Source: Pecten maximus (lineage: Eukaryota). Taken from it: a DNA stretch of 64,000 nt. The number at the start of each line of letters is the position of its first letter. Position 1 is the first letter of the stretch. A program made the position numbers. Below, in pieces: positions 3,268 through 6,183 of this stretch. The stretch covers positions 7,626,001-7,690,000 of the forward strand of contig NC_047022.1 of the NCBI RefSeq assembly GCF_902652985.1. The letters run 5' to 3'.

Positions 3268-6183
3268 CTATACGTCAATTACAGTATGTCTATAATACAT
3301 CTACATCTCTGATCTTTGTATTTTGTATCTCAGACTAATATATTTTGTATCTCTGATTTTTGTGTTTTGTATCTTGGATTTTTGTATCTCAGATTTTTGT
3401 ACCTCAAATTTTTGTACAGGTTAATTCAACAATGGTTTAACACGGGTCATTTTTTAAAAACTTTACCCCGCCCCAAACTGCCGCAAAAATACTCTCTATA
3501 TCTCAATTACAGTATGCCTATGCGAATCTATATCTCCGATTTTTGTATCTCCAATTTTTGCACAGGTCAATTCTGCAATGGTATATTTCTATCTTTTTTT
3601 TTAAAACTTTACCACGCCCCAAATTACCAAAAATTATCTATTTATATGTCAATAACAATATTTCTTTTTAATCTACATGCAGACAATCCAATACTGGTCA
3701 TCTTTAAACTTTACCCAATCCAAACTCATCCCTGAAATATTTTGCTAGATCAATGAAAAACAGTTGTTTTATGCAATAATGAGCTGTTTTTAAGTTGTAT
3801 TCTGTCTGCAGATTTTTTTCACGAGTGTAAGAAATCTTATAAAAATCATTTCAAACACAACAACCATATCCAGGTCTTTAAACAAATATGTGTAATATTA
3901 TGTGTAACACAAATCTAAACTTCTAGTATAATATATAGTTCCTACAAACAGGTTTCCTCTTTATATCACATTCCACTTAATATAACCAAGCAGTTTCTGC
4001 TTCACATTCTTAATATCACTTGTTTAAGTTAATATCATGTTTTCATAAAATATTGATATATATATATATTCCTTATCTATATTGTCTACATAATATATCA
4101 CGTTATAAACTCCAGATAATACCATGCTCTTGAGTACATTTCTGAATTAAATTCATGACGTGTGTGAAATTACAAAATCTGCCCCAAAACATCCTTAATC
4201 TTAACATATCCAAAGTTTATTTTTATCTTATCTTCCTTTCAAATTTGTTTTAAAAAAATAATGAATTACTTCATCCTGTAAACATTTTATAAAGATATTG
4301 GCATTTCATAACAATTTCCAGGGATCTTTTGTAATTTTCAGTAATGGTGACATTGACCTCTGACCTTTGGACTTGGACAGTTACCAGATATTTTTAGTTC
4401 ATAATAATTGGCTCATAATTGTCCATCAAAGTATCTAGAACATAAGACCACTGTCAGGTTTTGAATAATTTCATATGTACAACTATTACTTCTGTTACAG
4501 CAAGAACTGAAAATATCCCCCCCCCCCCCCCCCCCCCCCTCCCGATACAATTTCTACCAGGTATTACTGTAAATAACACACTTATAATATATACTAGGAA
4601 TAAATTTCATGTTACTTTAAATAACACACTCCCGATGGGAAAGACATACAACATGCTATGTCTTTTTTATTATTAACACCCAGTTATTGACAAAGTAAGA
4701 AATTATTTATCATGCGTGTGTCGAAGCTAACATGCATTTTCCTCACCAGTTTAAGGGTCCGACTGGAGCGTCTACTCTCATATATACTCTTATTGTGGGC
4801 ATAGACTTGTCTAAAATTCAAGCACAGCTCACAGAAACAAAGCTTACCGAGGTGAGTGAACCTGGCAAAGATGAGTCAAGCTCACAGAGAAAATGTTCAT
4901 CAAAGTAAGCTTAGCTCACCGAGACAAACTGAACTCATCAAAACAAGTTCAACTCATCATGAAAAGCTTAGCTAACCAAACAAGTTTAATCTTATTGGGA
5001 AAAGCTTAGCTCACCAAAACAAGTTAAACTTATTATGAAAAGTTTAGCTCACCAAAACAATTTAAACTTATTATGAAAAGCTTAGCTCACCAAAACAAGT
5101 TAAAACTTATCGCGAAAAGCTAAGCTCACCAAAACAAGTTTAAACTTGCATTGACAAGCTCACCTGGTAAGCTCTGCTCACCGAGACAAGCTAATTCACT
5201 AAAGTATATAAGGAGTAGACGCCCCACAGGAATATGTGTCAGTAACCGGTACCACAAAGGGAAACAACTGGACATGCAAACCAAAACCCAATCCTCAGGT
5301 TTTTATTACAATAATCTCTAATATTTCATCTCTGGCCAAAATACATGATATTAAATTTCAGTGATTATTATTCCTGTTAATCTAGCAATGTAGACGCTGT
5401 CCAAGAAGAATTTCCCTCTGTAGTACAGTAGCCTTAACTGAACTCTGCCCTCCGTCTCGCAGCCGGATAAAAATGTGGAAAATGCACAAAAATAGCAATT
5501 ACATAGTTCAAATAGTGCCAAAATCAAACTTTTTTCCATATAATTTATGATTTACGATAAATTACTAAAATGCTAAATCTTTTAGTGAAATTTTAAGAGA
5601 AAAGAGAAATCCGGAGTCGGAGAGGTGCAGTCAACACTCGGCTCAGGAGATTCGGTTTTTTCCCTTTGTGATGCAAATTTGCTAACACACCAGTAGCACT
5701 ACTTTGTCCAAAGCCTGAATTTATAGCTTACTTGACCATAGAAATCATATAATAATGGCAAATGTCTTTTACATGTTTTTTTTTACTCAAATTTATAGCA
5801 TAATTCATAAGTGATCTTTAAGGATGAAATGGAAAATATTACCGAAGCATTATGCATGCTTAATTTTTATAATCTAGTATAATTTATGTACAATATTTTG
5901 TAAACTGGAACCACATGTGGTACCTCAATTAAGACTTTGGACAAAGCAGTACATACACCTGTTGTCAAGGGTTTACAAAGACCAAAATTTCTCTCAACCT
6001 CGACCTTGTTTACAAAAGTTCAATGCTTGTAGAGAACTACTTGGAGGTCAAAGTGCTGCCGATTTTATTCAGATTTTATCAAAATGCATTTTCAATATTT
6101 TCAAAACAATAAAAAACTTAAGAGATTTTGTTAGAGGTTTGGAGAAATTTTGGATTGTCTCCCCTTTCCAGTCAGACCCCTTA

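What the first reader, a model, noticed from the sequence alone, without database searches (positions are those of the whole stretch)
5698..6175. Two back-to-back hairpins bridge the exon 24b donor to its selector
Seen: 5982-5993 pairs with 6142-6153 (12 bp perfect, extendable out to 5959/6175). 5698-5713 pairs with 5935-5950 (16 bp, one G-U on the transcript strand). Together they fold away nearly all of the ~495 nt between the donor (6184) and selector B (5690), leaving about 25 unpaired linker nt. Inference: such tight tiling suggests a selected scaffold rather than chance.
Basis: seen in the sequence. Interest (0 to 1): 0.72.

Follow-up and report, generated by a model that had tools for sequence, protein, structure and literature searches.

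The report
Two intron hairpins beside SERCA exon
Two stable RNA hairpins really do sit just after an alternative exon of a scallop calcium-pump gene, but they look more like leftovers of inserted inverted repeats than a proven splicing scaffold.

Summary
On the minus (transcript) strand, 5952-5696 (HP1) and 6166-5967 (HP2) fold as two adjacent hairpins. Core pair probabilities are 0.9-1.0. Shuffle z-scores are -4.17 (HP1), -2.69 (HP2) and -3.72 (both). They lie directly 3' of a 134-nt SERCA exon, one of an ancient mutually exclusive pair.

The inference "tight tiling, therefore selected scaffold" does not hold as argued. In 120 of 257 real 495-nt windows the predicted fold brings the ends at least as close. 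HP2's 12-bp core is within chance; HP1's 21-bp stem is not.

Imperfect direct repeats (CAACAGGT...) sit at all three hairpin junctions, which hints at two insertions next to the donor. The matching link for exon 24a is weak.

A parallel hairpin follows exon 24a, so a spacer-collapsing role stays possible. No mollusc genome was searchable, so neither conservation nor genome-wide MITE copies could be tested.

The parts
6185..6318 (-). SERCA alternative exon '24b' (134 nt, phase-0 start; encodes [44 protein letters not shown]); donor GT at 6184-6183
   Evidence: Sequence read; ORF. The peptide is 95% identical to SERCA of Mya arenaria, Tridacna squamosa and one unnamed protein.
6987..7120 (-). 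SERCA alternative exon '24a' (134 nt), paralogue of 24b; donor GT at 6986-6985
   Evidence: The peptide is 100% identical to P0124, 'SERCA-type-like isoform X1 [Argopecten...]'.
6134..6166 (-). HP2 5' arm (perfect core 6153-6142; second helix 6139-6134; outer helices 6158-6155 and 6166-6162)
   Evidence: p 0.6-1.0; z -2.69.
5967..6001 (-). HP2 3' arm (core 5982-5993)
5927..5952 (-). HP1 5' arm
   Evidence: p 0.73-1.00; z -4.17.
5696..5721 (-). HP1 3' arm
6183..6190 (-). Direct repeat R1, CAACAGGT (last 6 nt of exon 24b plus the GT of the donor)
5953..5964 (-). Direct repeat R2, CAACAGGTGTAT, the linker between HP2 and HP1. Its first 8 nt equal R1 exactly. It reads as a 5' splice-site-like CAG|GT.
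   Evidence: The null P for a shared exact 8-mer in 22-nt flanks is 0.010-0.017.
5685..5696 (-). Direct repeat R3, CTACTGGTGTGT, at the 3' foot of HP1 (8 of 10 and 9 of 12 matches to R2)
   Evidence: null: 291 of 3000 and 194 of 3000.
5654..5691 (-).
   Evidence: Its best partner in 2600-8000 is 5269-5233 at -34.5 kcal/mol. In the reverse scan the docking site is rank 2 of 6389.
5240..5278 (-). Candidate docking site (core UUUCCCUUUGUGG)
   Evidence: (I14).
5395..5430 (-). Site C, the best partner of the docking site (a local hairpin)
   Evidence: Rank 1 of 6390 windows at -26.4 kcal/mol. Reciprocal rank 1. Paired in the 991-nt MFE.
6598..6626 (-). Weak candidate 'selector A' downstream of exon 24a (GCAAAGGGGAAAG)
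   Evidence: Rank 2 of 6390 with the 23-nt docking core. Not in the top 14 with the 51-nt docking query. The docking site is not among its own top 6 partners. It is not among the docking core's top 4 partners in ungapped scoring.
6633..6957 (-). Long degenerate hairpin after exon 24a (arms 6957-6906 and 6686-6633; the MFE stem extends to about 6979/6615)
   Evidence: MFE -116.4, z -3.65, 0 of 100 shuffles; gapped arm alignment.

Best explanation
HP1 and HP2 are two short, AT-rich inverted-repeat elements, about 257 and 200 nt long. They lie head to tail in the first 490 nt of the intron 3' of SERCA alternative exon 24b. They most likely arose as two insertions or inverted duplications (MITE-like) at or next to the donor, not as structures built by selection.

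Each element pairs its own ends. The pre-mRNA should therefore fold each one out as a local hairpin soon after transcription. That leaves only the short junction sequences as linkers, which is why the tiling looks tight. A by-product, possibly the reason the insertions were tolerated, is that the purine-rich element at 5691-5654 stays about 30-40 nt from the donor in effective terms. Before the insertions it would have been about 10-35 nt away.

Shown: the stems, their predicted stability, their position, and the direct repeats. Inferred: the insertion origin, folding in vivo, and any effect on exon choice.
For: 1. Element anatomy: arms of 24-26 nt (88%) and 20 nt (90%) enclose loops of 205 and 132 nt with GC 0.26 and 0.29.
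2. HP1's 21-bp uninterrupted stem was never reached in 60 surrogates, so its origin is not random.
3. Related direct repeats sit at all three junctions. R1 and R2 share an exact 8-mer, CAACAGGT, that includes the last 6 exon bases (null P(>=8) 0.010-0.017; P(>=7) 0.03-0.04). R2 and R3 match 8 of 10 and 9 of 12 (null 291 of 3000 and 194 of 3000).
4. Comparable inverted-repeat hairpins lie elsewhere in the gene at 9840-9961 (46 bp, perfect) and 11352-11527 (38 nt, 82%), far from the 24a/24b cluster, although I did not map the exons flanking them. Such hairpins are therefore not tied to selectors.
5. Bringing the ends close is generic: 120 of 257 windows do as well.
6. The strand bias is not unusual: minus-plus MFE is -17.3, and 66 of 257 windows have at least this difference.
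7. Bivalve genomes carry a considerable proportion of MITEs, with hAT and Tc1/mariner the richest superfamilies (PMC10294476, passages seen).
Against: 1. There is no second copy of HP1, HP2 or the 24a hairpin in the 64-kb window at E<=1e-3. A SINE-like element in the same window was found in three further places (one partial) by the same search. For a low-copy family, however, 64 kb is too small to be informative.
2. HP2's inverted repeat starts about 14-16 nt inside R1 on the 5' side, so R1 does not abut a terminal repeat as a true target-site duplication should.
3. The R2/R3 repeat is imperfect and only weakly beyond chance.
4. No superfamily signature was recognised.
5. Predicted structure is concentrated in this exon cluster. 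Of the windows with the most negative GC-adjusted MFE on the minus strand, 4713-5455, 6201-6943 and the target all lie within about 2.3 kb.
6. A long hairpin also spans the interval after exon 24a and ends next to a weak docking-complementary site. Random insertion does not predict this parallel.
7. All 3 transition mismatches in HP1 are G-U on the transcript strand (p = 0.125 on its own, by my own arithmetic).
Confidence: 0.45

Rival explanations
1. Selected spacer-collapsing scaffold. The hairpins are maintained because they hold a selector element close to the exon 24b donor. Pairing of that selector with a docking site at 5278-5240 can then act on the splice site, as part of a competing-structure switch between exons 24a and 24b.
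For: The core stems have predicted pair probability 0.9-1.0 and persist in larger contexts. Selector B and the docking site pair at -34.5 kcal/mol, and the docking site is rank 2 of 6389 in the reverse scan. Only 22 of 1276 control 23-mers have 2 or more of their top-4 partners within 1.4 kb, as the docking core does. The interval after exon 24a is also folded away by one long hairpin (z -3.65) that ends next to a site ranked 2 of 6390 for the docking core. The transcript strand folds better (-121.4 vs -104.1 kcal/mol). Approximation by intronic pairing, where the structure itself is dispensable, is established for the exon 4 cluster studied in PMC4691838 (passages seen).
Against: Tiling is generic. 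Stability relative to real windows is modest (9th of 257). HP2's core is within chance. The selector A to docking link, which a two-exon switch needs, is not reciprocal and fails the ungapped test. The docking site's best partner is a third site, C, which flanks no exon. Both exons are 134 nt, so frame disruption alone could enforce exclusivity (inference). No conservation data exist.
Confidence: 0.25
2. The hairpins act on splicing in another way. They might present or hide the G-runs just after the donor (GUAAGGGGUCUGACUGGAAAGGGG). They might cluster three 5' splice-site-like motifs (R1, R2, R3). Or they might serve as double-stranded substrates for editing or processing.
For: Bases 6179-6167, next to the donor, alternate between HP2's outer helix (p 0.15) and exon 24b bases 6241-6250 (p 0.6-0.7). 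R2 and R3 read CAG|GUGUAU and CUG|GUGUGU. HP1 is a 21-26-bp duplex.
Against: No Rfam family matches HP1 or HP2 at E<=1. The motifs are equally well explained as duplicated target sites. Nothing here tests binding or editing.
Confidence: 0.1
3. Plain chance complementarity in an AT-rich intron, with neither an insertion origin nor a function.
For: Stems of 12 bp or more occur 7.6 times per 64-kb surrogate. The window holds 49 inverted-repeat pairs of 18 nt or more within 400 nt.
Against: 0 of 60 surrogates reach 21 bp. HP1 has z -4.17 with 0 of 200 shuffles as stable, and HP2 has z -2.69 with 1 of 200.
Confidence: 0.08

Closest known systems
Docking-site / selector-sequence competing RNA pairings in mutually exclusive splicing (Dscam1 exon 6 type; human ATE1 R1/R4 vs R3)
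   Same: There is a cluster of homologous, equal-length alternative exons. One intronic site (5278-5240) can pair with several purine-rich sites through the same core nucleotides.
   Different: Only the partner after exon 24b and a non-exon site C are well supported; the partner after exon 24a is weak. There is no conservation or mutational evidence. The finding itself concerns spacer hairpins, not the docking/selector pairs. Sources: PMC6071210 (abstract) and PMC7797038 (abstract in the listing; passages).
Approximation stems in the bidirectional-pairing exon 4 cluster of PMC4691838
   Same: [quoted passage not shown] That is the mechanism proposed for HP1 and HP2.
   Different: In that system the pairing partners flank exons and were tested by mutation and by mimicking deletions. 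Here each stem closes on plain intron, and nothing has been tested.
Dscam exon 6 locus control region (tandem multi-subunit RNA structures)
   Same: Several stem-loop 'subunits' in tandem in an intron of a mutually exclusive exon cluster (PMC3535345, abstract).
   Different: The LCR is conserved across 63 species and activates the whole cluster. HP1 and HP2 have no known conservation and share no sequence with each other.
MITE-like non-autonomous DNA elements of bivalve genomes
   Same: Short size, AT-rich interior, terminal inverted repeats of 20-26 nt, intronic location and TSD-like flanking repeats. [quoted passage not shown]
   Different: No further copies were seen (window only). The target-site duplications are imperfect or do not abut the repeats, and no superfamily could be assigned.
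Origin of competing structures by duplication of an exon together with one arm of an intronic stem-loop (Ivanov and Pervouchine model)
   Same: A tandem exon pair with intronic stem-loops beside each copy (PMC6071210, abstract).
   Different: The two introns share no detectable similarity (best E 0.08). A common origin of the hairpins by duplication is therefore not visible.

Membership tests
Docking/selector competing-structure system | A cluster of homologous mutually exclusive exons | tested here: met
   Both exons are 134 nt and paralogous. In Littorina saxatilis, two 1016-aa proteins differ at 14 positions, all within residues 875-908, one carrying the a-type and the other the b-type segment. 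Mya arenaria also has both types. Use of 24b in this scallop itself was not shown.
Docking/selector competing-structure system | One docking site complementary to a selector beside each variant exon | tested here: inconclusive
   Selector B: -34.5 kcal/mol and near-reciprocal. Selector A: rank 2 of 6390 in one scan, but absent from the top 14 with the longer query, from the reverse top 6, and from the docking core's ungapped top 4.
Docking/selector competing-structure system | The pairings are mutually exclusive because they use the same docking nucleotides | tested here: met
   All candidate partners pair with the UUUCCCUUUG core.
Docking/selector competing-structure system | Conservation or covariation across species, and an effect of mutations | not testable with these tools
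   No eukaryotic genome collection was available, and these are bench tests.
MITE | Terminal inverted repeats around a short, non-coding, AT-rich body | tested here: met
   Arms of 24-26 nt (88%) and 20 nt (90%); bodies of 257 and 200 nt with GC 0.29 and 0.33.
MITE | Target-site duplication directly abutting both ends | tested here: inconclusive
   HP2 has an exact 8-mer, but it lies 14-16 nt from the 5' arm. HP1 has an abutting repeat, but it matches only 8 of 10.
MITE | Many dispersed copies in the genome | tested here: not met
   0 other copies in the 64-kb window at E<=1e-3. The genome itself could not be searched, so this is a weak negative.
Known structured RNA families (Rfam 15) | A covariance-model match | tested here: not met
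   There is no match on 5690-6184 at E<=1. All 5 listed matches fall elsewhere: 4 on the 9841-9960 palindrome and 1 at 5063-5142, all below their gathering scores.

The most novel reading that the evidence does not exclude
Both variants of an ancient lophotrochozoan SERCA exon pair would carry self-folding 'collapsible spacers' between the donor and a docking-complementary element: one long hairpin after 24a and two tandem hairpins after 24b. Intron insertions would then be absorbed without changing the effective geometry of a competing-structure splicing switch. I recall no described docking/selector system in a mollusc; that is recall, and my searches did not target the question.
Probability: 0.2. 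Interest if true: 0.7.

Novelty: new member of a known kind. Interest (0 to 1): 0.38.

Why it matters
If the hairpins are only insertion remnants, the finding is ordinary. It would be another case of inverted repeats in bivalve introns, and a useful warning that "the RNA folds the gap away" is true of almost any 500-nt stretch.

If they are maintained, they would show how a structure-based exon switch stays functional while its introns take up mobile DNA. They would also extend competing-RNA-structure control of exon choice to molluscs, in a calcium-pump gene whose a/b exon pair is shared by bivalves, gastropods and flatworms.

Either outcome can be tested with scallop genomes that already exist and with a simple minigene.

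Tried and rejected
1. Self-BLAST of 5650-6190, and of each hairpin, against the window gave no other copies. This is uninformative for low-copy families.
2. An Rfam scan at E<=1 of 2000-12000 found nothing on the hairpins.
3. The intron after 24a shows no significant similarity to the intron after 24b (best E 0.08). Shared ancestry of the hairpins or selectors is therefore not visible.
4. Strand asymmetry as evidence for RNA-level selection was rejected. The -17.3 kcal/mol difference is matched by 66 of 257 windows, and 3 G-U against 1 A-C mismatch is not significant (my own arithmetic).
5. The similarity between 'selector A' and 'selector B' was rejected as evidence. By my own estimate from sequence lengths, shared 7-11-mers between introns of these sizes are expected by chance.
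6. The docking 13-mer GUUUCCCUUUGUG recurs in a repeat at 23761-23800, but no wider similarity was found. This is left unexplained.
7. The listing of cluster members on P0124 did not complete because the database was switched off. Whether a scallop isoform with 24b is deposited stayed unchecked.
8. ARAGORN found no tRNA in the SINE-like element.
9. Two sliding-window runs hit the time limit. A coarser run was used instead.
12. Supplementary TE libraries of PMC10294476 and PMC11481361, which might contain scallop MITE or SINE consensus sequences, could not be seen.

Full report
**What is there**

The window carries a SERCA-type Ca2+-ATPase gene on the minus strand (ORFs; sequence).

- Two paralogous 134-nt exons lie in tandem: 24a at 7120-6987 and 24b at 6318-6185.
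- Both follow exon 23, which ends at 8003. Both precede an exon that starts at 3244 (SLSENQSL...).
- 134 is not a multiple of three. Including both exons, or neither, would therefore break the reading frame (inference).

I searched the two exon peptides separately and built no joined spliced model.

- The 24a peptide is 100% identical to P0124, 'SERCA-type-like isoform X1 [Argopecten...]'. In that search 771 proteins had E<=0.001 among 776 candidates.
- The 24b peptide is 95% identical to SERCA of Mya arenaria, Tridacna squamosa and one unnamed protein. In that search 127 proteins had E<=0.001 among 129 candidates.
- In Littorina saxatilis, two 1016-aa proteins differ at only 14 positions, all within residues 875-908. 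One has the a-type segment and the other the b-type.
- Gene models of Echinococcus multilocularis and Batillaria attramentaria carry both segments in tandem.

The a/b exon pair is therefore old and is used as alternatives in other molluscs. Use of 24b in this scallop was not shown, because the cluster look-up did not complete. My two searches of the paper library listed no title or abstract describing this exon pair. Each listing showed 15 of 197 and 15 of 39 hits, and I judged them from titles and abstracts only.

**The observation**

Both pairings exist as stated.

- HP1: a 21-bp uninterrupted stem, 5952-5932 with 5696-5716, including 3 G-U pairs. It extends to 5927/5721 with one U-C mismatch.
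- HP2: a perfect 12-bp core, 6153-6142 with 5982-5993. A 2x2 mismatch follows, then 6 bp, plus outer helices to 6166/5967.
- Folding 5650-6190(-) gives both hairpins in the MFE and the centroid (z -3.72, 0 of 100 shuffles).
- Separately, HP1 has z -4.17 (0 of 200 shuffles) and HP2 has z -2.69 (1 of 200).
- Both persist in 991-nt and 1131-nt contexts, with core pair probabilities of 0.92-1.00.
The linkers are therefore about 31-38 nt rather than about 25.

**Is it more than chance?**

HP1: yes.
- It is the second-longest uninterrupted stem (loop of 300 nt or less) among 61 in the 64-kb window.
- 0 of 60 Markov surrogates reached 21 bp.

HP2's core: no.
- Surrogates give 7.6 stems of 12 bp or more per 64 kb, against 13 observed.

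Against real sequence rather than shuffles, the 495-nt interval is only moderately unusual.
- Its GC-adjusted MFE residual is z -1.71, and 8 of 257 windows are at least as low.
- The repeat finder lists 49 inverted-repeat pairs of 18 nt or more within 400 nt in the window. HP1 and HP2 rank 9th and 20th by length.

**The tiling argument**

I measured how close the two ends come in the predicted fold of 257 real 495-nt windows on the same strand. The measure is the number of unpaired exterior bases plus exterior helices.

- The median is 15, and the target scores 14.
- 120 of 257 windows do as well or better.

This matches the general result that RNA ends are necessarily close (PMC3017586, abstract seen). 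Folding away "nearly all of the interval" is therefore not evidence of selection. What sets this interval apart is only the length and certainty of the closing stems.

**Signs of an insertion origin**

- The loops are AT-rich (GC 0.26 and 0.29), and the units are 257 and 200 nt long.
- Related direct repeats sit at the three junctions.
  - R1, CAACAGGT (6190-6183), is the exon end plus GT.
  - R2, CAACAGGTGTAT (5964-5953), lies between the hairpins.
  - R3, CTACTGGTGTGT (5696-5685), lies at the foot of HP1.
- R1 and R2 share an exact 8-mer. The null probability is 0.010-0.017 for 8 or more matches and 0.03-0.04 for 7 or more.
- R2 and R3 match 8 of 10 (null 291 of 3000) and 9 of 12 (null 194 of 3000).

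Read as target-site duplications, these repeats imply two insertions at nearly the same spot. The original donor would have been CAG|GTGTAT, with the 5690 element a few tens of nt from it.

Weaknesses of this reading:
- HP2's repeat starts 14-16 nt inside R1.
- The R2/R3 repeat is imperfect.
- No other copy of either hairpin occurs in the window, although a SINE-like element was picked up in three further places (one partial) by the same search.
- 64 kb cannot exclude a genome-wide family.

Similar hairpins elsewhere in the gene, away from the 24a/24b cluster, include a perfect 46-bp palindrome at 9840-9961 and a 38-nt, 82% repeat at 11352-11527. I did not map the exons around them. They show that inverted repeats are a general feature of this gene. 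MITEs are abundant in bivalves (PMC10294476, passages).

**The selector premise**

The element at 5691-5654 pairs best with 5269-5233 (-34.5 kcal/mol, against -25.6 for the next partner in 2600-8000).

Scanning the whole window with the 23-nt docking core (6390 windows) gave:
- rank 1: 5391-5430 (site C);
- rank 2: 6591-6630 (after exon 24a);
- rank 3: 21581-21620 (unrelated);
- rank 4: 5641-5680 (selector B).

The reverse scans are mixed.
- Site C returns the docking site as rank 1.
- Selector B returns it as rank 2 of 6389.
- The 24a site does not return it among its top 6.

In an ungapped control, the docking core has 2 of its top-4 partners within 1.4 kb (B and C). Only 22 of 1276 control 23-mers reach that. 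The 24a site drops out of the docking core's top 4.

A local pairing of B (and C) with the docking site is therefore supported. A true two-exon competition is not.

**What keeps the scaffold reading alive**

- The interval between the 24a donor and the weak 24a site is also folded away by one long degenerate hairpin. Its arms are 6957-6906 and 6686-6633, with z -3.65 and 0 of 100 shuffles as stable.
- Predicted structure is concentrated in this cluster.
- The transcript strand folds better than the opposite strand (-121.4 vs -104.1 kcal/mol), although that difference is common (66 of 257 windows).
- Approximation by intronic pairing, with the structure itself dispensable, is an established mechanism (PMC4691838, passages).
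- Tandem stem-loop 'subunits' act in the Dscam exon 6 locus control region (PMC3535345, abstract).

**Verdict**

The hairpins are best read as inverted-repeat insertions that the pre-mRNA loops out (confidence 0.45). A selected spacer-collapsing scaffold is a live rival (0.25).

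Noticed in passing
window 6185-6318 and 6987-7120 (minus); proteins P0126/P0021, P0156/P0004, P0001, P0002: The SERCA a/b exon pair, which covers the loop before and the start of a C-terminal transmembrane helix (the helix assignment is recalled), is shared by bivalves and gastropods. It is apparently shared by flatworms too, where gene models wrongly include both copies in tandem. Two paper searches listed no title or abstract describing it (15 hits shown per search).
   Followed up: partly
window 7725-7931 (minus), intron 23; further copies at 46793-47000, 48044-48229 and 56792-56840: A SINE-like dispersed repeat of about 205 nt ending in an A-run, found at four places in the window (the one at 56792-56840 is a 49-nt partial match; 83-91% identity overall). 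ARAGORN finds no tRNA in it. HCD-tRNA SINEs are reported to accumulate in bivalve genes (PMC11481361, abstract).
   Followed up: partly
window 9840-9961: A perfect 46-bp inverted repeat with a 30-nt loop elsewhere in the SERCA gene. It hits several miRNA-precursor Rfam models below their gathering scores (mir-5014: 79.4 bits against 101). It is likely a young foldback or MITE-like element.
   Followed up: partly
window 4905-5192: A 38-nt tandem repeat of 5.6 copies (4934-5147) is flanked by a 26-nt direct repeat (4905-4930 and 5167-5192, 88%). This region is by far the most stably folding part of the minus strand (-181.6 kcal/mol, GC-adjusted z -5.2) and does not appear among the ten most stably folding plus-strand windows listed.
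   Followed up: no
window 4517-4543: A run of 27 C on the plus strand (G on the transcript) inside the intron between exon 24b and exon 25.
   Followed up: no
window 23141-23800: A tandem repeat with a period of about 155 nt. Its unit contains the same 13-mer (GUUUCCCUUUGUG on the minus strand) as the candidate docking site at 5268-5253. No wider similarity was found.
   Followed up: partly
window 3305-3661: Nested tandem repeats (periods 15, 22 and 146 nt) just upstream of the exon that starts at 3244.
   Followed up: no
window 6167-6179 with 6241-6250: The G-rich bases just after the exon 24b donor are predicted to pair with exon 24b itself (p about 0.6-0.7), in competition with HP2's outermost helix.
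   Followed up: no
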